Virus record (IMG/VR): IMGVR_UViG_3300033067_002106
Coordinates: 18,836-82,835 of that record
Reading direction: 5' to 3' (one strand)
From: a virus
Taxonomy: Duplodnaviria > Caudoviricetes
Length of the DNA: 64,000 bases
The position numbers were made by a program, and so were the translations under genes. Below are positions 3,337-24,762 of this stretch, in pieces. How positions within the stretch are numbered: the stretch's first letter is position 1; each line of letters begins with the position of its first letter. A model generated the notes under the pieces. That model was not told the origin of the DNA. It saw only the letters and a list, made by a program, of their open reading frames with translations, and made no database searches.

Positions 3337-4863
3337 ATGAAAAAAATTAAACTTACCAAGGAACAATATGACAGGCTAGTCACCAAAAATATATTTGAAT
3401 CATCAGATGTTAAAGGTGGGGTTAATAGGGTTAATACTACATTTAAGAAAGCATTTAACAAAGCTGACGTTCAAAATCTTGGTGAAGATGAATTTAATAT
3501 TACCAGACCAATTGCTGGGCTTCCAAATACAAAAATGAACAAGACAAAGGAAATCCCAACACCTGAAGCGATTACTGAAGATATTTTTAGTCCCGATGTT
3601 CATAAAGCGGTACATGATGTTATTCAAAACATCTGGCTTAATCCATCACAACAGGGGTTGGATAAATTTTTTGTTGAAAACGGAATTACATGGGGTGATA
3701 TAATTAGTTATCTTACTAGTGTAGGAGTTGTTGCGGCTGTTGGAAACGGAATATATAAAGTAACAAATTACTTTAAAAGAAAATTTAGTGGTAATAAGCA
3801 AAAAGATATGCAGATGAAGATGGCCGATATTGAAAAGATGGCCAAGATGGTTGAAAAAGACCCAGAATCTCCATGGCAAAAAAAGGTTAGATTACAAAGC
3901 AAACCAGAAACAGGGTTTGAACCCAAGCCAAAATCATTTAATCCAAATGGTCGTAAGCCTATATCTAGTTATCCTAATCCAGCTTTACAAAACAAAGAAA
4001 TGGAAGAAGCTAGTAATTATCCACCCGGAACTGAAGATGACCAATCAGCACCTTGGAATCAGGATAGTTCAAACGTTGAGATTTCAAGTGCCAAAAGGAT
4101 TTACAAACCTATTGTCATGAATTATGATATAGCGGTTCTAAATGGGCCAGATGGTGTGTATATTTTTTACTATGATGATATCGATAGAAGTGAAATACCA
4201 AACGCTGATTATGAGTTAACGATTGACGATTTGGTTGATTACGTAAATGAACATTCTGAAACAATTAAAAAAGGTATAGGAATGGAGGGGTGGAATTCAG
4301 GTGCCGAACTAATTAAACTGGATGAACCACTCAGGGAAGAGCTTATTAAGCTTTATTCTAAGGATAAAGAGTTAATGAAGGCCTTACAAAGACTTGAAGA
4401 GATGACCAGCGCAGCAAGCTCTGGTTCGTTTACAGGGCCATTCGGCGGAACACCAGACAAAAACCGTACAATGGGGTATAGTCCAGCTGAACAAATAGAT
4501 GAAATGACAGCCGCAGGTGGTGGCGGAGCACCAGAAGTCGGTTCAAGTTCAACAGGCCAATATGTTCAACCAGCTATTTGGGCCAATGGTAAAAAAAATT
4601 GGAAAGCGGCTAAGAAAACACAATATCCGGGTGGAGAAATGGTAGATTTAGATTCTTGTACCAAATTAAACAATAATAAATCCGCCCAAAATGGTAAATG
4701 TAGTACTGGAGCCGCTGATGGTGTTGTAAAAACACATAAAACCAATCAATCTGTTATTTCTAAGTCTGTTTATGAAGAAGTGGCTAAAAGAACGGGAAAA
4801 ACAATAGAAGAAGTAGAGAAAATTATTAAAACAAAACAGGTTAAGGATAAATCTTTAAGATAA
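3337..4863 (+). CDS. Hypothetical, probable virion/head-associated protein
   Basis: 508-aa ORF with low-complexity EEMT..A segments. Confidence 0.6.
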   Translation: MKKIKLTKEQYDRLVTKNIFESSDVKGGVNRVNTTFKKAFNKADVQNLGEDEFNITRPIAGLPNTKMNKTKEIPTPEAITEDIFSPDVHKAVHDVIQNIWLNPSQQGLDKFFVENGITWGDIISYLTSVGVVAAVGNGIYKVTNYFKRKFSGNKQKDMQMKMADIEKMAKMVEKDPESPWQKKVRLQSKPETGFEPKPKSFNPNGRKPISSYPNPALQNKEMEEASNYPPGTEDDQSAPWNQDSSNVEISSAKRIYKPIVMNYDIAVLNGPDGVYIFYYDDIDRSEIPNADYELTIDDLVDYVNEHSETIKKGIGMEGWNSGAELIKLDEPLREELIKLYSKDKELMKALQRLEEMTSAASSGSFTGPFGGTPDKNRTMGYSPAEQIDEMTAAGGGGAPEVGSSSTGQYVQPAIWANGKKNWKAAKKTQYPGGEMVDLDSCTKLNNNKSAQNGKCSTGAADGVVKTHKTNQSVISKSVYEEVAKRTGKTIEEVEKIIKTKQVKDKSLR

Positions 4864-4893
4864 ACTGGGATATTTATATTAAAATACGACGAC

Positions 4894-15747: not shown

Positions 15748-16101
15748 GGGGGATTTACGGTATTGACTAGGTATAGTCGTAAATTGTAAGCATGTGGTGC
15801 TAAATGGATGCACCATAATCTGTCTATTAAAACACAAACGACAACGATTTTATCGTTTCAGAAAATTTCCTTGATGAAGCTGTTTACAGCTTCGCTGGAG
15901 AGCTTGCTGTAGCCTAATATAGCGATGGTGGTAAACCACCAAAAACATCTTTTTAGAGTGAGGATGTAAAAGAAACTCTGGGTTCATTTGGTTTCCAACA
16001 TTAAAACCAAAATATTTAGAAGGATTAGAAAATCCTGTTCTAAACATGTAGAAAGCTTTTGAAGAATACTTAACACAGCGGTTCGATTCCGCTATCCTCC
16101 A
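15748..16101 (+). ncRNA. ssrA: tmRNA; predicted tag (A)TNDNDFIVSENFLDEAVYSFAGELAVA at 15834-15917
   Basis: GGGGGAU...UUGAC 5' end; T arm gcgg-ttcgatt-ccgc; acceptor with G3-U; tag ORF ending LAVA-stop. Confidence 0.92.
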
Positions 16102-16148
16102 CGTTACTTTTTTGTACCTAGCACATATTTATATAGAAATGTATAGAT

Positions 16149-18016: not shown

Positions 18017-18697
18017 ATGAAAAAGAACATTACCCTAGAAATCAGAGATGCTGAAGGTGGCTCTGATGCAAAACTTCTGGTCTGTGATATGAGAGACATC
18101 TATATCAGAGCAGCAAAGAATAACGACTTCAACTGAAGGGTTCTCGAAGAACGAGATGGGTTTGTCAATATCTGACTCTCAGGCCCAAATGTCGAAAAAT
18201 TTTATCAAAACGAAATAGGTTCTCACAGGTGGCAAAGAGTTCCACCAACCGAAAAACGTGGTAGGGTTCATACCAGTACCATTACCGTTGCATTGCTTGA
18301 ACTTACCAATTATCAAAATATTGAGGTACCACAAAATGAACTTAAGGTTGAAACAACCAGAGGTACAGGTAATGGTGGACAACATAAAAATTCTACTGAT
18401 TCGTGTGTTGTAATGACCCATATACCAACAGGTATAAAGGTTGTGAGAGATGGTAGAAGTCAACTTACAAATAGGGAAGATGCATATAAAGAGATAAATC
18501 GTAGAGTAAATGAATATTATCGTACTGGTCAAATGTGTGAAGAATCTGAAATTCGAAAAGAACAAATCGGTGACGGTGCTAGAAGTGATAAACGAAGAAC
18601 CTATCGTGTTAGGGATGGAATAGTCGTAGACCACATTACAAATAAAATTGCAACAATAAAAGAAATTTTAAAGGGTAAGATTAATTTATTGTCATAA
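18017..18697 (+). CDS. RF1-like peptide chain release factor lacking domain 1, with two in-frame TGA (18134, 18173)
   Basis: One frame: LEIRDAEGG..., HRWQRVPPTEKRGRVHTSTITVA (PxT), GGQ, RRTY. Confidence 0.85.
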
Positions 18698-19662: not shown

Positions 19663-19734
19663 GGCTCGGTGGTGTAACGACAACATTTAGGACTCTAAAT
19701 CCGAAAGATAAGGGTTTGAATCCCTTTCGAGTCT
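19663..19734 (+). tRNA. Amber suppressor tRNA (CTA), copy 1
   Basis: Cloverleaf; loop ctCTAaa; D-loop GG replaced by GA; one anticodon-stem mismatch. Confidence 0.8.
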
Positions 19735-19741
19735 CAAAACC

Positions 19742-19989: not shown

Positions 19990-20106
19990 ATGACACACTA
20001 GATTTCTAACAACGAAAAGTTACGTATTGTAACAAGAAGGGATATCCCCCTACAGTATGCGGCAGTACAAGCTGGCCTTTTCGATTTCTCTCCATATTTA
20101 TATTAT
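19990..20106 (+). pseudogene. 5' remnant of Pth2-like gene (MTH*ISNNEKLRIVTRRD...), in frame with downstream endonuclease
   Basis: Paralogous to 20795 start; TAG at 19999-20001. Confidence 0.8.
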
Positions 20107-20790
20107 ATGAAAAGACCAAATGTTAGAAAAACAACCGAGAAGTTTATTCAAGAATGTCAAAAAATTCACAAAAAATACGACTATTCATTAGTTGAGTACG
20201 TTACAAATAAAACTCCTGTCAAAATTATTTGTAACATACATGGTGTATTTAGCCAAATTCCATCCCATCATTTAAAAGGTTCTGGGTGTCCAAAGTGTGC
20301 CAATGACGTTAAATCAATAGAGTTCTTCATTGAGAAATCAAAATTGATTCATGGTAATTATTACGATTATTCAAAAGTAGAATTTAAAAACACGAATAAT
20401 AAAGTAATTATTGTCTGCCCCAAACACGGTGATTTTAGTCAACAACCAAAACATCATTATAATGGTGCTGGGTGCCCATATTGTAAGCAATCTAAAGGTG
20501 AAAGGGACATAATAAAATATCTTAAGGAAAACAATATAAAATTTATTTCACAAAAGAGATTTAATGATTGTAGAGATAAAAAACCATTACCGTTTGATTT
20601 TTATCTACCAGAATTAAATATTTGTATTGAATTTGATGGTGAACAACATTTTAAAAGTAAATCAGTTTTTGGTGGTGACAAAGAATTTGAGAATAGGGTC
20701 AGACGTGATGTAATAAAAACCAATTATTGTGATAAAACTGGAATTAAATTAATAAGAATTAAAAATAACGAAACAATTAATCTAAAATAA
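20107..20790 (+). mobile_element. Mobile endonuclease (CxxH/CxxC repeats plus PD-(D/E)XK, DUF559/Vsr-like)
   Basis: Repeated YDYS.V.Y...IIC..HG.F.Q.P..H..G.GCP.C; PFDFYLPELNICIEFDGEQHF. Confidence 0.8.
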
Positions 20791-20794
20791 AACT

Positions 20795-21151
20795 ATGACA
20801 CATTAGGTATCAACAACAGAAAAACTAAGGGTGGTTACCAGACGTGACCTATCATTTGGTGCGCAATCAATTCAATGCGGTCATGCCGCCATCGATTTTC
20901 AACACCAGCATCCAGAATTAGCCAAACTTTGGCACTCCCATTCAAATTATTTAGCGTATTTAACCGTCAAGGACGAACAAGAGCTTATTGACTTAATCGT
21001 CAAAGCAACCTTGCGTGGTATCAAATACACAATCTTCAGGGAGCCTGATATCAATAATCAAATTACAGCGGTGGCCTTTGAGCCAACAAGTGCTAGTCGT
21101 AAGTTAACTAGTTCATTACCACTTCTGGGAAAGGAGGTAAGCTATGCTTAA
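20795..21151 (+). CDS. Peptidyl-tRNA hydrolase II-like protein with TAG at codon 4 (20804)
   Basis: KLRVVTRRDL...QCGHAA...FREPD...ITAVA (Pth2 fold pattern). Confidence 0.75.
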
Positions 21152-21404
21152 CATCAACGAAAGAACTGAGATAATCTTCCATTTCAATAAGAAGTATTTG
21201 GAAGATAATACCATCCCCATGTGGATTATCAAAGCCAAGGGTGAGACATACTATGTTCACCACGTGGATATGGAAAGCGGTGTTGGATTTTCAACCAAAG
21301 AAACACCAGATAATCCCCATACCAAGGGTTCAATCAAATTTAAGGGTAAATTAAGTATTCATCCAAATGAACATGGAGAATTGATAGCAACAATTTCACC
21401 TTAA
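21144..21404 (+). CDS. Hypothetical protein
   Basis: 86-aa ORF. Confidence 0.7.
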   Translation: MLNINERTEIIFHFNKKYLEDNTIPMWIIKAKGETYYVHHVDMESGVGFSTKETPDNPHTKGSIKFKGKLSIHPNEHGELIATISP

Positions 21405-21410
21405 TGAGAA

Positions 21411-21481
21411 GGTCAAGTGGCCGAGTGATAAGGCATGGTTCCGCAAGGACCAGTACGGTGGTTTGAATCCATCCTTGACCT
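21411..21481 (+). tRNA. tRNA-Cys(GCA)
   Basis: Cloverleaf; U73; atypical C33. Confidence 0.8.
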
Positions 21482-21486
21482 CACTA

Positions 21487-21511: not shown

Positions 21512-21550
21512 ATAATTTGACGTTTTATCATTTTCATGATATTTATTAAT

Positions 21551-22135
21551 ATGGAAAAAGAATTATTAAAAAAATATATTGATGAGGGTCTCTCAATAAG
21601 AAAAATTGCTGAAAAATTAAGTTGTTCAGCAACAACAATTAGGTATTATTTAAACAAATTTGATTTGGTAAGCAAATGGCATCAGCCAAATAAATTTAAT
21701 GTTGAAGTAATTAGAAAATTATGTGAAGAAAAAATTAGTATTTCTGAAATTTTACGTGAATTAAATTTACATGTTAGCAACACTAATTTTTTATCTATAA
21801 AGAGATTTGCAAAAAAAAATAATATTATATTGCCTAAAAATGGAAATAAAAGCGGAAATAAACGATTTCCAAAAAGAACGAATAGTGAAATTTTTTGTGT
21901 AAATAGTCCCGTTAGTAGGGGGGTGGTAAGAAAACGATTATTAGAAGAAGGTCGAGGTGAAAAATGTGAATTATGTACACAAGGTATTGAATGGAACGGA
22001 AGAAAAATATCTATGATATTAGACCATATTAATGGGGTTCCAGACGATAATAGACGTGAAAATTTAAGATTTATATGCCCAAATTGCGACTCAACATTAG
22101 ACACATTTTGTGGGCGAAATAAAAGATATAAATAA
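21551..22135 (+). mobile_element. HNH homing endonuclease with N-terminal HTH
   Basis: CELC...LDHING...DNRRENLRFICPNC. Confidence 0.85.
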
Positions 22136-22136
22136 T

Positions 22137-22207
22137 GTGGGTGTAGCTTAAAGGTAAAGCGATGGTCTCTAAAACCATTGTTGACAGTTCGATTCTGTTC
22201 ATCCATA
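22137..22207 (+). tRNA. Amber suppressor tRNA (CTA), copy 2
   Basis: Full cloverleaf; atggt-ctCTAaa-accat. Confidence 0.88.
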
Positions 22208-22239
22208 CAGATACTGTGGGTTCGAATCCCGTATATCCA
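22208..22239 (+). pseudogene. tRNA 3'-half remnant
   Basis: gtggg-ttcgaat-cccgt T arm without a 5' half. Confidence 0.6.
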
Positions 22240-22797: not shown

Positions 22798-24762
22798 ATG
22801 ATAATGAAAAAAATCATCACATTTCTAGCAATTCTGATTGGTTTTCAGGGACTTACACAAGATACCCTAAAGATTATAACCCTTGAAAGGGCCTTGGTAA
22901 CTAGTGTTAGGGCGGATAAAAAAACCCCTATAACACAGAAAACAATCGGGGATACATCCATACAGGAAACATATCAGGGTCAGGAGATTCCGATGCTTTT
23001 AGGCTCTCAGCCATCAATAAATTCAAATAGTGATGGTGGTCATCCATTCGGTTATAGTTATTTTAGTCTTAGAGGGGCTAGTCAAAGCAGAATCAATATG
23101 ACGCTTAATGGTGTACCACTTAATGAACCGGAAGACCATGGTGTATATACATCAAACTATCCAAGCTTTATTAATTCAATTCAATCGATTCAAATACAAA
23201 GAGGTGTTGGAACATCCTCTAACGGTGCTGCATCGTTTATTGGGTCTATTAATTTTCAAACAAAAAATGGTCTTAAAAAAGCGACAGATATTCAGTTGGG
23301 TGCCGGTGCTTTCAATACGCTACGGTTTAATGCTTCAACAGCATCTGGATTAAATAAAAACAACATTGCATATGTGGTAAATATTGGTGGAATCAGAACC
23401 GATGGTTTCCGTGAAAACTCTGGAAGTGTTGGTGGTTCAGTATTTACAAGTCTTGGTTATTTTGGAAATAAAAGAATCACCAAGGTAGTATTTTTTTCTG
23501 GTCAGAGTAAAAACAAAATGGCGTGGGATGGCTCAGATGAAAGTGTTTTGAAAACAAACTTTAGGGACAATCCAAGAGGTTTGGATAATACGGATTTGTT
23601 CACCCAATCCCATATTCAATTACACAATGTAAACATGTTCAGTAAGAAATTTAAACTTACAACAACTGTTTTTTATAATCATTTAAGGGGCCATTACGAT
23701 GTTTATAGCATGAAGGATATTTCAGCCATTGGTTATTATGCCGCCGAAAAACAATCATCTAATTGGTTTGGCTATATCAATCAATTCGATTATAAATCAC
23801 GTACAACCAATCTTAGCGTTGGTGTGTCATTAAACACATATAAACGGAACCACAATGGTGTTAAATATTATGATAGCACAACAAGCTTAGAATATAGCAA
23901 CCATGGAGTAAAGAATGAGGCTAGTGGGTTTGTTAAGGTAAACTTTGGTGATGATGTGGTCAGATTTTATGCTGACCTCCAAGGCCGTTACATTGATTTT
24001 AAATATCTGGGTGATGTTCCAATGAATAAACAATCATGGTTCTTTATAAATCCAAAGATTGGTCTAAAGATATTCTTCAACAAGGATATCGATGTTTATT
24101 CCAGTTTAGCAATATCCCACAGGGAACCAACAAGGTCAGTTTTATTTGGTGGTGGATTTTATTTAACAACATTAAATTTGATTAAACCTGAAGAGGTTAT
24201 CGATTTCGAACTTGGAACAAACTATAAAACGGACAGGCTCAGACTTCAATCCAATATTTTTTACATGGCGTTTAGGAATGAAATTATTCCAGCTGGTCCA
24301 ATAGGTTCAAATAGCCTACCAACAATGATTAATGTTGATAAAAGCAAAAGATATGGACTTGAAGTTGACGCTCAATATGCTTTATCAGACAGGGTTTCAT
24401 ATGATGGTAATCTTACTCTTTCACGGAGCCAATTCGGGGACCAAAAAAATGAACAACTGTTTTCACCAAGAGTAATGTTTAATCAATCTATAACGCTTGA
24501 ATATCGAGAACTATCACTTGGGGTAAACCAAACTGTTTTTTCTAAATCATACATTGATATTACAAACACAAACTCAATGGCTGGTTATTTTGTGTATGGG
24601 GTTAATGTGTCTTATGAAAAAAATAATTATAGGGTCAGCATACAAGCCAATAACATAACAGATAAAAAATATTATTCGAATGGTTATGTTGCAAATGGTG
24701 TGAGATATCTTTATCCAAATGCTCTAGCCAGCTATTATGTGACGGTTAAAATTAGGTTATGA
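22798..24762 (+). CDS. TonB-dependent outer-membrane receptor
   Basis: Signal peptide; plug RINMTLNGVPLNEPED, IQIQRGVGTS.NG; beta-barrel pattern. Confidence 0.88.
   Translation: MIMKKIITFLAILIGFQGLTQDTLKIITLERALVTSVRADKKTPITQKTIGDTSIQETYQGQEIPMLLGSQPSINSNSDGGHPFGYSYFSLRGASQSRINMTLNGVPLNEPEDHGVYTSNYPSFINSIQSIQIQRGVGTSSNGAASFIGSINFQTKNGLKKATDIQLGAGAFNTLRFNASTASGLNKNNIAYVVNIGGIRTDGFRENSGSVGGSVFTSLGYFGNKRITKVVFFSGQSKNKMAWDGSDESVLKTNFRDNPRGLDNTDLFTQSHIQLHNVNMFSKKFKLTTTVFYNHLRGHYDVYSMKDISAIGYYAAEKQSSNWFGYINQFDYKSRTTNLSVGVSLNTYKRNHNGVKYYDSTTSLEYSNHGVKNEASGFVKVNFGDDVVRFYADLQGRYIDFKYLGDVPMNKQSWFFINPKIGLKIFFNKDIDVYSSLAISHREPTRSVLFGGGFYLTTLNLIKPEEVIDFELGTNYKTDRLRLQSNIFYMAFRNEIIPAGPIGSNSLPTMINVDKSKRYGLEVDAQYALSDRVSYDGNLTLSRSQFGDQKNEQLFSPRVMFNQSITLEYRELSLGVNQTVFSKSYIDITNTNSMAGYFVYGVNVSYEKNNYRVSIQANNITDKKYYSNGYVANGVRYLYPNALASYYVTVKIRL

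What the first reader, a model, noticed from the sequence alone, without database searches (positions are those of the whole stretch)
19990..21151. Pth2-like gene gated by an amber codon at position 4, conserved in two diverged copies
Seen: ATG ACA CAT TAG GTA... (20795) is in frame with the Pth2-like domain. The orphan 5' copy ATG ACA CAC TAG ATT... (19990) keeps the same TAG despite divergence elsewhere (KLRIVTRRD vs KLRVVTRRD), which argues against sequencing error or decay. Two CUA suppressor tRNAs flank the locus. Established: very short ORFs (lambda bar minigenes) promote peptidyl-tRNA drop-off, the substrate of Pth. Inference: full Pth is made only on UAG readthrough, so its synthesis reports RF1 shortage or suppressor abundance.
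Basis: partly seen in the sequence, partly recalled or inferred. Interest (0 to 1): 0.88.

Follow-up and report, generated by a model that had tools for sequence, protein, structure and literature searches.

The report
Amber-gated phage Pth2-like gene, duplicated by homing endonuclease
A large phage that otherwise uses the normal genetic code keeps a UAG stop as the fourth codon of a small tRNA-hydrolase-like gene, flanked by two phage tRNAs that read UAG. About 80 related phages keep the same early stop, so the enzyme is probably made only when such a tRNA overrides it, and the second "orphan" copy is the leader of an inserted homing-endonuclease gene.

Summary
ATG ACA CAT TAG (20795) is in frame with a PTH2-family domain. 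ATG ACA CAC TAG (19990) heads a diverged partial copy. tRNA-CUA genes lie at 19663-19735 and 22137-22208.

Family evidence:
- Of 82 IMG/VR relatives (42-79% identity), 80 have TAG and one has TAA, 2-6 codons after an ATG. None has a sense codon there.
- Most relatives have no other start before the domain, so GTG 20831 is not conserved.
- 67 of 81 relatives have a tRNA-CUA within 3 kb.
- The base after the gate is always a purine (59/59).

Code usage: this contig, a complete 353-kb relative and cultured Tenacibaculum phage pT24 all use TAG as an ordinary terminator and show no general recoding.

Best reading (0.72): a gene-specific translational gate opened by the phage suppressor tRNA. The purpose of the gate is inferred, not shown.

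New here: the "orphan" is the resident 5' end, fused in frame to a homing endonuclease whose cassette carries a replacement 5' end. The same in-frame layout recurs at five other junctions. Neighbouring HD-like, ORF86-like and one unknown gene carry early ambers in some relatives.

The scan reported the Pth2 gate before on other genomes. I found no published description.

The parts
20795..21151 (+). Pth2-like gene, 118 codons with TAG as codon 4 (20804-20806) and stop TAA 21149-21151
   Evidence: PF01981 at 37.6 bits. AF2 model pLDDT 91.5, with TM 0.72-0.77 to solved Pth2 structures. The gate is conserved in 81 relatives.
20831..20833 (+). GTG, the only canonical start after the TAG. It lies inside strand beta-1 of the domain.
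   Evidence: It is not conserved: in relatives the first canonical start after the gate is mostly at codon 15-111 or absent.
19990..20077 (+). Resident ('orphan') 5' end of the Pth2-like gene: ATG, ACA, CAC, TAG (19999-20001) and 25 more codons
   Evidence: 87% nucleotide identity to the endonuclease-free allele L017 over codons 1-29, and the upstream region is also alike.
19990..20790 (+). 266-codon frame that joins the amber-gated leader in frame to the homing endonuclease
   Evidence: The same in-frame fusion is seen in L008, L050, L057, L061 and L062.
20107..20790 (+). Homing endonuclease ORF with its own ATG (treble-clef Zn / DUF723 repeats plus a PvuRts1I/DUF559-like nuclease)
   Evidence: PHROG 559 'HNH endonuclease' at 2.5e-63 and PHROG 9084 'homing endonuclease' at 1.5e-29. 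Pfam hits.
20078..20878 (+). Inferred mobile cassette: the endonuclease gene plus a replacement 5' end (codons 1-28) of the Pth2-like gene
   Evidence: Against L017, the intact gene is 56% identical over codons 1-29 but 80% over codons 30-112. Alignment A3.
19663..19735 (+). tRNA with anticodon CUA (amber suppressor type), odd D arm, discriminator U
   Evidence: ARAGORN; Rfam RF00005 at 46.9 bits.
22137..22208 (+). Second tRNA with anticodon CUA, canonical cloverleaf, discriminator A
   Evidence: ARAGORN; Rfam 66.7 bits; fold z-score -2.6.
21144..21404 (+). ORF86, a small all-beta protein of unknown function whose start overlaps the Pth2-like stop (translational coupling likely)
   Evidence: Conserved in 24 loci in the same position. 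AF2 pLDDT 84 with no fold match. The homologue in L090 carries its own early TAG.
21411..21482 (+). tRNA-Cys (GCA), a conserved neighbour of the module
21536..22135 (+). HNH homing endonuclease wedged between tRNA-Cys and the second tRNA-CUA
   Evidence: Pfam HTH plus HNH_3.
18293..18697 (+). GGQ-only RF-1-domain protein (a peptidyl-tRNA hydrolysis domain without the codon-reading domains)
   Evidence: PF00472 at 83 bits. Present within 3 kb upstream in 13 relatives.
15748..16102 (+). Phage tmRNA gene, part of the same translation-rescue neighbourhood
   Evidence: ARAGORN; Rfam RF00023 at 66.4 bits.

Best explanation
The Pth2-like gene is translated from ATG 20795. After three sense codons the ribosome meets UAG. 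RF1 then releases a tripeptide, unless a phage tRNA with anticodon CUA (two genes flank the locus) inserts an amino acid, after which the 118-residue protein is made.

The UAG is therefore a gene-specific translational gate. It ties production of this enzyme, and of the coupled ORF86, to the presence and activity of the phage suppressor tRNA relative to RF1. The phage otherwise uses the standard code.

The gate sits in the unstructured N-terminal tail, where any residue is tolerated, and in a purine-after-stop context that favours suppression.

What is shown: the conservation of the gate, the linkage to the tRNA, and the lack of other starts.

What is inferred: that readthrough by the phage tRNA actually occurs. 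Its purpose is also inferred. My preferred reading is a timer or feed-forward link that supplies a peptidyl-tRNA recycling or tRNA-care activity only once suppression, with its side effects, is under way.

The second copy at 19990 is the resident 5' end of the gene. A homing endonuclease cassette entered at codon 29/30, just before the invariant His. It brought a diverged replacement 5' end with its own ATG-ACA-CAT-TAG and left the old gated leader fused in frame to the endonuclease.
For: 1. Conservation of the gate. In 82 IMG/VR loci (42-79% identity), 80 have TAG and one has TAA, 2-6 codons after an ATG; one locus lacks upstream sequence. None has a sense codon there. Among 59 non-identical gates the stop is at codon 3 (30 cases), 4 (18) or 5 (7).

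2. No alternative start. The first ATG/GTG/TTG after the gate lies deep in the domain or is absent in about 66 of 81 loci.

3. Coding signature across the stop. The two window copies are 53% identical in nucleotides yet share 16 of 29 residues, with 10 synonymous changes, one of them before the TAG. The residue after the stop is Ile or Val in 54 of 59 gates.

4. Linkage to a suppressor tRNA. A tRNA-CUA lies within 3 kb on the same strand in 67 of 81 loci. The one TAA gate (L015) has a tRNA-UUA beside it.

5. Context. The base after the gate is A in 48 and G in 11 cases, and never a pyrimidine. Ordinary TAG terminators show 18 purines and 17 pyrimidines (Fisher p = 2e-9).

6. No general recoding.
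- TAG ends 10 of 74 large ORFs here, 25 of 326 in the complete relative G003, and 25 of 209 in pT24.
- The major capsid genes of relatives have no in-frame stops.
- No other gene in this contig shows the gate.

7. Frame maintenance behind the TAG. In six loci with five or six different junctions and two endonuclease types, the orphan leader is always in frame with the endonuclease ORF. Chance is about 0.004 if the junctions are independent.

8. Protein family. The protein has a Pth2 fold.

9. Cultured example. In phage pT24, one of only three tRNA genes is tRNA-CUA, 2.6 kb upstream of a gene that starts ATG AAA TAG.
Against: - Nothing is experimental. Expression, charging and identity of either tRNA-CUA are unknown, and the first one has an odd D arm.
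- This particular gene does have GTG 20831. A 106-residue product missing two residues of strand beta-1 cannot be excluded.
- In cluster C mycobacteriophages the codon right after the TAG is GTG, which is the annotated start, so the gate there is ambiguous.
- 40 of 59 gates are followed by ATT, a weak start codon in some bacteria.
- The complete relative G003 has a TAG gate but no tRNA-CUA by ARAGORN, only a tRNA-UUA 37 kb away.
- A strong suppressor should also extend the roughly 8-13% of phage proteins that end in TAG.
- The contig is only about 23% of a genome.
- The L015 gene with the TAA gate is frameshifted.
- The active-site lysine loop of archaeal Pth2 is deleted, so the enzymatic activity is uncertain.
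Confidence: 0.72

Rival explanations
1. The ATG-x-x-TAG is a real three-codon upstream mini-ORF. The enzyme is started afresh just behind it: at GTG 20831 in this phage, at ATT, ATC or GTG in others. Reinitiation or ribosome stalling at the minigene sets the level, and the suppressor tRNA plays no part.
For: - GTG 20831 exists.
- 44 of 59 gates are followed by ATT, ATC or ATA, and one by ATG.
- Mycobacteriophages have ATG-TAG-GTG with GTG annotated as the start.
- ATT is over-represented among Ile codons at that position (p = 2e-6).
Against: - Ten gates are followed by GTA or GTT, and others by ACG, GGC, AAT or AGA, none of which initiate.
- Ile/Val alternation looks like an encoded residue.
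- This reading explains neither the near-universal linkage to a suppressor tRNA nor the TAA/UUA pairing.
- It does not explain the in-frame endonuclease fusions.
- It does not explain why the stop is TAG in 80 of 81 loci in AT-rich genomes where TAA is about ten times more common as a stop.
Confidence: 0.12
2. The phage reads TAG as a sense codon generally (code 15) in the three quarters of the genome not on this contig. The codon-4 TAG would then be just one recoded codon among many.
For: The contig is about 23% complete. Recoded phages with CUA tRNAs are well known. Gene callers chose code 15 for many short contigs of this family.
Against: - TAG terminates 10 of 74 large ORFs on this contig.
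- The complete relatives G003 (353 kb, terminal repeats) and pT24 use TAG as a stop. They have essentially no TAG-joined ORFs, and their capsid genes carry no in-frame stops.
- In a recoded genome TAG would drift among synonymous positions rather than stay fixed at codon 3-5 across 42-79% identity.
Confidence: 0.05
3. UAG is read through by host near-cognate tRNAs because termination so close to the start is inefficient. The neighbouring CUA tRNAs would serve some other purpose.
For: Early stop codons are known to terminate poorly and to favour drop-off (general knowledge, not tested here). G003 has no detected tRNA-CUA.
Against: A suppressor tRNA is linked in 67 of 81 loci, and the TAA gate sits with a tRNA-UUA. 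An ungated homologue (L115) also keeps a tRNA-CUA nearby, which argues for a functional tie between the tRNA and this gene.
Confidence: 0.06
4. The gene is a decaying pseudogene, or the TAG is a sequencing error.
For: A stop at codon 4 is what a nonsense mutation looks like. One relative (L015) also carries a frameshift.
Against: The stop is at the same place in 81 relatives with otherwise intact, conserved domains. Two diverged copies in this window both keep it. The sequence is seen on 6 contigs.
Confidence: 0.01

Closest known systems
Stop-codon-recoded phages with phage-encoded suppressor tRNAs (TAG read as Gln, 'code 15'; crAss-like and Lak phages; Borges et al. preprint 10.1101/2021.08.26.457843; Peters et al. 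PMC9523058)
   Same: A phage-encoded tRNA-CUA is proposed to override UAG in a host that uses the standard code, and readthrough is proposed to regulate when certain genes are made.
   Different: In those phages 26-71% of genes carry in-frame stops at drifting positions and TAG is avoided as a terminator. Here one small gene family, plus a few neighbours in some lineages, carries a single stop fixed at codon 3-5. The rest of the genome uses TAG as a normal stop.
prfB (RF2) autoregulation through an in-frame UGA at codon 26
   Same: A conserved in-frame stop early in a translation-factor gene makes its output depend on how well that stop is recognised.
   Different: prfB needs a +1 frameshift and its product is the factor that reads the stop. 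Here the frame does not change, the override comes from a separate tRNA gene, and no feedback from the Pth2-like product onto UAG decoding is known.
Lambda bar minigenes (two- to three-codon ORFs that sequester tRNA as peptidyl-tRNA when Pth is limiting)
   Same: ATG ACA CAT TAG is formally a three-codon minigene, and it heads a gene of the enzyme class that clears such products.
   Different: bar minigenes are stand-alone. Here the frame behind the stop encodes a conserved protein. No drop-off or toxicity was tested.
Archaeal and eukaryotic Pth2 (M. jannaschii 2zv3, human PTRH2/Bit1 1q7s, S. solfataricus 1xty)
   Same: Same fold (TM 0.72-0.77) and a recognisable sequence relationship (E 3.6e-8). 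The 'Q..HAA' helix and the 'T-A-V-A..P' strand are conserved.
   Different: The Gly-Lys-Gly-Lys loop is shortened by two residues and has no lysine. 'D-A-G..T' is replaced by an invariant 'E-P-D' with a loop four residues shorter.
Free-standing homing endonucleases of T4-like phages (Seg and Mob proteins; the mobE-split nrdA of phage Aeh1)
   Same: An endonuclease gene is inserted at a highly conserved site of a phage gene, with diverged flanking sequence on the donor side.
   Different: The target gene is neither split nor interrupted. The cassette carries a recoded duplicate of the first 28 codons that rebuilds the gene. The old 5' end becomes an in-frame leader of the endonuclease.

Membership tests
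PTH2 peptidyl-tRNA hydrolase family (PF01981) | Sequence match to the family profile above its curated cut-off | tested here: met
   37.6 bits against a cut-off of 23; residues 6-106 match profile positions 2-114 of 115. The profile of A1 matches 2zv3 at E 3.6e-8.
PTH2 peptidyl-tRNA hydrolase family (PF01981) | Pth2 alpha/beta fold | tested here: met
   AF2 model pLDDT 91.5, pTM 0.85. The top 13 Foldseek hits are all Pth2 structures, with TM 0.72-0.77 for the best.
PTH2 peptidyl-tRNA hydrolase family (PF01981) | Active-site residues of archaeal Pth2: Lys of the GKGK loop, and Asp and Thr of the D-A-G-x-T motif (identities recalled from the S. solfataricus work, not re-read here) | tested here: inconclusive
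   In the HMM alignment the GKGK loop is two residues shorter and lacks Lys. The Asp position is taken by the invariant Glu79 of 'E-P-D', and the Thr-bearing loop is four residues shorter.
PTH2 peptidyl-tRNA hydrolase family (PF01981) | Hydrolysis of N-blocked aminoacyl-tRNA | not testable with these tools
   Needs an enzyme assay or complementation of a pth(ts) strain.
Code-15 (TAG-recoded) phages | In-frame TAG in a large share of genes, especially late genes | tested here: not met
   Only the two Pth2 leaders in this 83-kb contig carry it. The capsid genes of relatives have no stops. G003 has 5 TAG-joined ORF pairs in 353 kb, four of them on the minus strand.
Code-15 (TAG-recoded) phages | TAG avoided as a terminator | tested here: not met
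   TAG ends 10 of 74 large ORFs here, 25 of 326 in G003 and 25 of 209 in pT24.
Code-15 (TAG-recoded) phages | Phage-encoded tRNA with anticodon CUA | tested here: met
   Two in the window; present in 67 of 81 related loci.
prfB-type autoregulatory recoding site | Conserved early in-frame stop whose bypass is needed for the full product | tested here: met
prfB-type autoregulatory recoding site | Bypass by a +1 frameshift on a slippery site with an upstream Shine-Dalgarno-like element | tested here: not met
   The domain is in the same frame as the ATG. There is no conserved slippery motif, and no significant local structure (z -0.6 and -1.0).
prfB-type autoregulatory recoding site | The gene product itself acts on the stop codon (a feedback loop) | not testable with these tools
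   No evidence either way. The product is a Pth2-like protein, not a release factor.
Lambda bar-type minigene | Stand-alone ORF of 2-4 codons whose expression is toxic when Pth is limiting | tested here: inconclusive
   The form is present (ATG + 2 codons + TAG), but the frame behind it is coding. Toxicity and drop-off are not testable here.
Free-standing phage homing endonuclease | Nuclease and DNA-binding modules of known homing endonuclease families; sporadic presence at the same site among related genomes | tested here: met
   PHROG 559 at 2.5e-63 and PHROG 9084 at 1.5e-29. Present at this site in 8 of 83 loci and absent from the close allele L017.

The most novel reading that the evidence does not exclude
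Standard-code jumbo phages carry a self-contained 'amber regulon'. Their suppressor tRNA would act as a trans-acting translational activator for a handful of neighbouring genes that each begin with ATG, 1-5 codons, then UAG. These are the Pth2-like gene in all cases; an HD-like partner, ORF86 and an unknown gene in some lineages; and homing endonucleases that capture the gated leader. If so, this is a natural orthogonal expression switch and the long-sought target of suppressor tRNAs in non-recoded phages. The endonuclease cassettes would represent a new homing design that rebuilds the target gene with a recoded 5' duplicate.
Probability: 0.4. Interest if true: 0.85.

Novelty: new variant of a known kind. 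Interest (0 to 1): 0.74.

Why it matters
- Suppressor tRNA genes are common in phages that do not use an alternative code, and their targets have been an open question. The authors of the XacN1 genome paper looked for targets of its two CUA tRNAs and found none (PMC5852040).
- A stop codon fixed at codon 3-5 of one gene family, always beside such a tRNA, gives a concrete conserved target and a simple model: one tRNA, one gate.
- The model can be tested in cultured systems: Tenacibaculum phage pT24, and cluster C mycobacteriophages in M. smegmatis.
- It is a natural counterpart of the amber-suppression switches used in synthetic biology.
- It exposes an annotation problem. Gene callers either truncate these genes or print a spurious Gln at the gate.
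- The endonuclease cassette that restores its target with a recoded 5' duplicate adds a further way for mobile nucleases to invade essential-looking sites without breaking them.

Tried and rejected
- **Sense-codon homologues.** I looked for homologues with a sense codon at the gate to learn the inserted amino acid. The 'MTHQ...' proteins in the database translate only with TAG=Q, so they carry no information. No IMG/VR locus has a sense codon there.
- **RNA structure at the gate.** None beyond chance (z -0.6 and -1.0).
- **Promoter and terminator scans.** Counts match the shuffled expectation.
- **tRNA identity.** The 69 distinct suppressor tRNAs have mixed discriminators (A 41, G 11, U 9, C 8, some in a poor register) and unrelated acceptor stems. 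No isotype could be assigned.
- **ORF86.** No Pfam or PHROG family. Foldseek found no PDB match at E <= 0.001, and the best VIA-align score was Z 3.5, which is uninformative.
- **XacN1.** Its Pth2-like domain is the C-terminal part of ORF364, behind an HD-like domain, and it has no gate. This phage therefore does not show the switch.
- **L015 as covariation evidence.** The TAA gate with a neighbouring tRNA-UUA is weakened because that gene is frameshifted.
- **HD-like domain.** Only a weak Pfam HD hit (E 0.0037, below the cut-off) for L012, and none for L077.
- **Literature.** Six full-text searches and four papers searched for key terms turned up no description of an amber-gated Pth gene.
Full report
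**Setting.** The window is the last 64 kb of a single 82.8-kb viral contig, estimated at about 23% of a genome. It has 34% G+C and nearly all genes lie on the + strand. It carries 31 tRNA genes, a tmRNA gene and several homing endonucleases. Relatives carry a T4-type gp23 capsid gene and reach 350-480 kb, so this is a fragment of a T4-like jumbo phage. Its relatives include a phage of the flavobacterium Tenacibaculum.

**The observation.** It holds exactly as described.
- ATG ACA CAT TAG begins at 20795. The frame behind it is open to 21151 and matches Pfam PTH2 at 37.6 bits against a cut-off of 23. The match begins three residues upstream of the only later start codon, GTG 20831.
- ATG ACA CAC TAG begins at 19990 and is followed by ISNNEKLRIVTRRD...
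- The 12-mer occurs exactly twice in the window, where 0.04 occurrences are expected.
- tRNA genes with anticodon CUA lie at 19663-19735 and 22137-22208. Both pass the Rfam tRNA model, at 46.9 and 66.7 bits.
- The two leaders are only 53% identical in nucleotides over 29 codons. Six codons are identical and 10 differ synonymously, including the His codon before the TAG. That is the pattern of a translated sequence.

**Is the stop real and conserved?**
- Database homologues of 114-118 residues read 'MTHQISN...'. Their DNA translates to those proteins only if TAG is read as Gln, so the Q comes from code-15 gene calling.
- I examined the DNA of 82 IMG/VR loci found with the protein and with a family alignment. 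Eighty have TAG and one has TAA in frame, 2-6 codons after an ATG. One locus lacks upstream sequence. None has a sense codon at that position.
- Among 59 non-identical gates the stop is at codon 3 (30 cases), 4 (18) or 5 (7).
- The first canonical start after the gate is usually far inside the domain or absent, for example none in L002 and codon 111 in L007.
- The base after the stop is A in 48 and G in 11 cases, and never a pyrimidine. TAG codons that end ordinary genes in this contig and in a complete relative are followed by a pyrimidine in 17 of 35 cases (Fisher p = 2e-9). A purine after UAG is the classical context for efficient amber suppression (general knowledge).

**Linkage to the tRNA.**
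- A tRNA-CUA lies within 3 kb on the same strand in 67 of 81 loci, often 50-150 bases upstream of the ATG.
- The single TAA gate (L015) sits beside a tRNA with anticodon UUA, although that gene is also frameshifted.
- The complete relative G003 has a TAG gate and no tRNA-CUA by ARAGORN. It does have a tRNA-UUA, a type that can also read UAG.
- An ungated homologue (L115) still has a tRNA-CUA 1.2 kb away. This suggests the tie between this protein and suppressor tRNAs is older than the gate. It rests on one case.
- The 69 distinct suppressor tRNAs have unrelated acceptor stems and mixed discriminator bases. They probably do not all carry the same amino acid. That fits a gate in the flexible N-terminal tail ahead of strand beta-1.

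**Not a recoded genome.**
- TAG ends 10 of 74 large ORFs on this contig, including the DnaJ-like gene and the ligases.
- It ends 25 of 326 in the complete, terminally repeated 353-kb relative G003.
- It ends 25 of 209 in cultured phage pT24.
- Capsid genes of four relatives have no in-frame stops.
- A scan for the pattern 'ATG, up to 6 codons, stop, long open frame with no early start' finds only the two Pth2 leaders plus chance-level hits.

**The protein.** The AlphaFold model (pLDDT 91.5) matches solved Pth2 structures with TM 0.72-0.77, and the family profile matches them in sequence. The lysine-bearing loop of archaeal Pth2 is shortened, and the acidic motif reads E-P-D instead of D-A-G. 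I therefore file it as Pth2-like in fold, with activity untested.

**The neighbourhood.**
- ORF86 overlaps the stop of the Pth2-like gene and accompanies it in 24 loci. It has no recognisable family or fold.
- Upstream lie a tmRNA gene and a GGQ-only RF-1-domain protein. The neighbourhood is a translation-rescue island.

**The second copy.**
- Alignment with the endonuclease-free allele L017 shows that the copy at 19990 is the resident 5' end. It is 87% identical over codons 1-29, and the upstream region is also alike.
- The intact gene is only 56% identical to L017 over codons 1-29 but 80% over codons 30-112.
- It follows that a cassette of about 0.8 kb (about 20078-20878) entered at codon 29/30, just before the invariant His. 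The cassette holds the endonuclease gene (PHROG 559 at 2.5e-63) and a diverged replacement 5' end with its own ATG-ACA-CAT-TAG.
- The old leader now runs in frame into the endonuclease ORF (19990-20790).
- The same layout recurs in L008, L050, L057/58, L061 and L062/63. These have different junctions within a stretch of about ten codons, use two endonuclease types, and are always in frame. If the junctions are independent the chance of this is about 0.004.
- Frame maintenance behind a stop codon is itself an argument that ribosomes pass the stop.
- The two copies are thus alleles from different phage lineages, which is why both keep the TAG.

**Other gated genes.**
- In eight more distant loci an HD-like gene directly upstream of the Pth2-like gene also starts with ATG, 1-5 codons, then TAG. 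The same domain is fused to Pth2 in L012 and pT24. In XacN1 it is fused in the reverse order, without a gate.
- The ORF86 homologue of L090 is gated.
- An unknown gene in L010 carries the very same MTH-stop-I leader.
- The gate therefore looks like a small regulon around the suppressor tRNA.

**Mechanism and odds.**
- I put 0.72 on the reading that the full-length protein needs UAG readthrough by the phage suppressor tRNA, so that output follows suppressor activity relative to RF1.
- Why the phage wants this is inference. My preferred reading is a timer or feed-forward link that supplies tRNA-recycling activity once suppression is active.
- The main rival (0.12) is reinitiation just behind a regulatory mini-ORF. 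It is favoured by the frequent ATT and by the mycobacteriophage ATG-TAG-GTG arrangement. It is disfavoured by the gates followed by GTA or GTT, by the tRNA linkage, and by the in-frame endonuclease fusions.

**Novelty.**
- Six full-text searches and four papers searched for key terms gave no description of this gate.
- The XacN1 paper states that targets of its CUA tRNAs could not be found.
- This scan has reported the Pth2 gate before on other genomes. My results agree with those notes. They add the endonuclease cassette, the terminator-context contrast and the whole-genome tRNA and TAG-terminator check of pT24.
- Relative to the literature it is a new variant of suppressor-tRNA recoding: gene-specific, position-fixed, and found in standard-code phages.

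Noticed in passing
window 19990-20878; L008:1930-2720, L050:1709-2460, L057:1766-3000, L061:1971-3000, L062:1978-3000: Homing endonuclease cassettes of two nuclease types sit inside the 5' part of the Pth2-like gene. They carry a diverged duplicate of the first 20-29 codons that rebuilds the gene. The old gated leader is always left in frame with the endonuclease.
   Followed up: partly
L067, L070, L072, L074, L076, L077, L085, L092 (about 2410-2990 in each): An HD-like gene directly upstream of the Pth2-like gene also has an early in-frame TAG (codon 3-7). The same domain is fused to Pth2 in L012 and phage pT24. In XacN1 ORF364 it is fused in reverse order without a gate.
   Followed up: partly
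L010:4513-4950: A second, unrelated 142-codon gene begins with the identical leader ATG ACA CAY TAG ATT (MTH-stop-I), downstream of the tRNA-CUA. It has no Pfam family.
   Followed up: partly
L090:2600-2851: The ORF86 homologue lies upstream of the Pth2-like gene here and carries its own TAG at codon 3.
   Followed up: no
window 15748-16102 and 18293-18697: A phage tmRNA gene and a 134-residue GGQ-only RF-1-domain protein (no codon-reading domains) lie just upstream. The latter is conserved within 3 kb of the Pth2-like gene in 13 relatives.
   Followed up: partly
window 22798-24762: A 654-residue ORF that reads like a TonB-dependent outer-membrane receptor (read by eye from the translation, no family search run). 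It is conserved at 46-58% identity next to the module in L001, L002, L004, L005, L026 and L043.
   Followed up: no
L015:2986-3320 and 4794-4868; L071: L015 has the only TAA gate, beside a tRNA with anticodon UUA, but its Pth2-like gene has a frameshift. L071 has a TAG gate with a 95-nt tRNA-UUA nearby.
   Followed up: partly
G003 (L096-L113), 188241-188313: This complete 353-kb relative has 60 tRNAs, a TAG-gated Pth2-like gene and no tRNA-CUA by ARAGORN. It has one tRNA-UUA, 37 kb from the gene.
   Followed up: no
L002:3678-3750; L114:3345-3419: ARAGORN calls tRNAs with four-base anticodons (ggaa, ttca) right beside Pth2-like genes. The L114 gene is ungated.
   Followed up: no
window 21536-22135: An HNH endonuclease gene fills the gap between tRNA-Cys and the second tRNA-CUA, ending one base before the tRNA. 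In L001 the two tRNAs are adjacent.
   Followed up: no
P0002-P0120: Public protein sets hold this family either truncated (106 aa, starting inside strand beta-1) or with a spurious Gln at the gate from code-15 gene calls on short contigs. The deposited pT24 annotation starts the gene 32 codons inside the domain.
   Followed up: yes
L093 (Myrna), L095 (Catera): Cluster C mycobacteriophages have a start codon, then TAG, then GTG (ATG-TAG-GTG or GTG-TAG-GTG) before their annotated peptidyl-tRNA hydrolase. A tRNA-CUA lies 130-250 bases downstream, deposited as tRNA-Ser or tRNA-Arg.
   Followed up: partly
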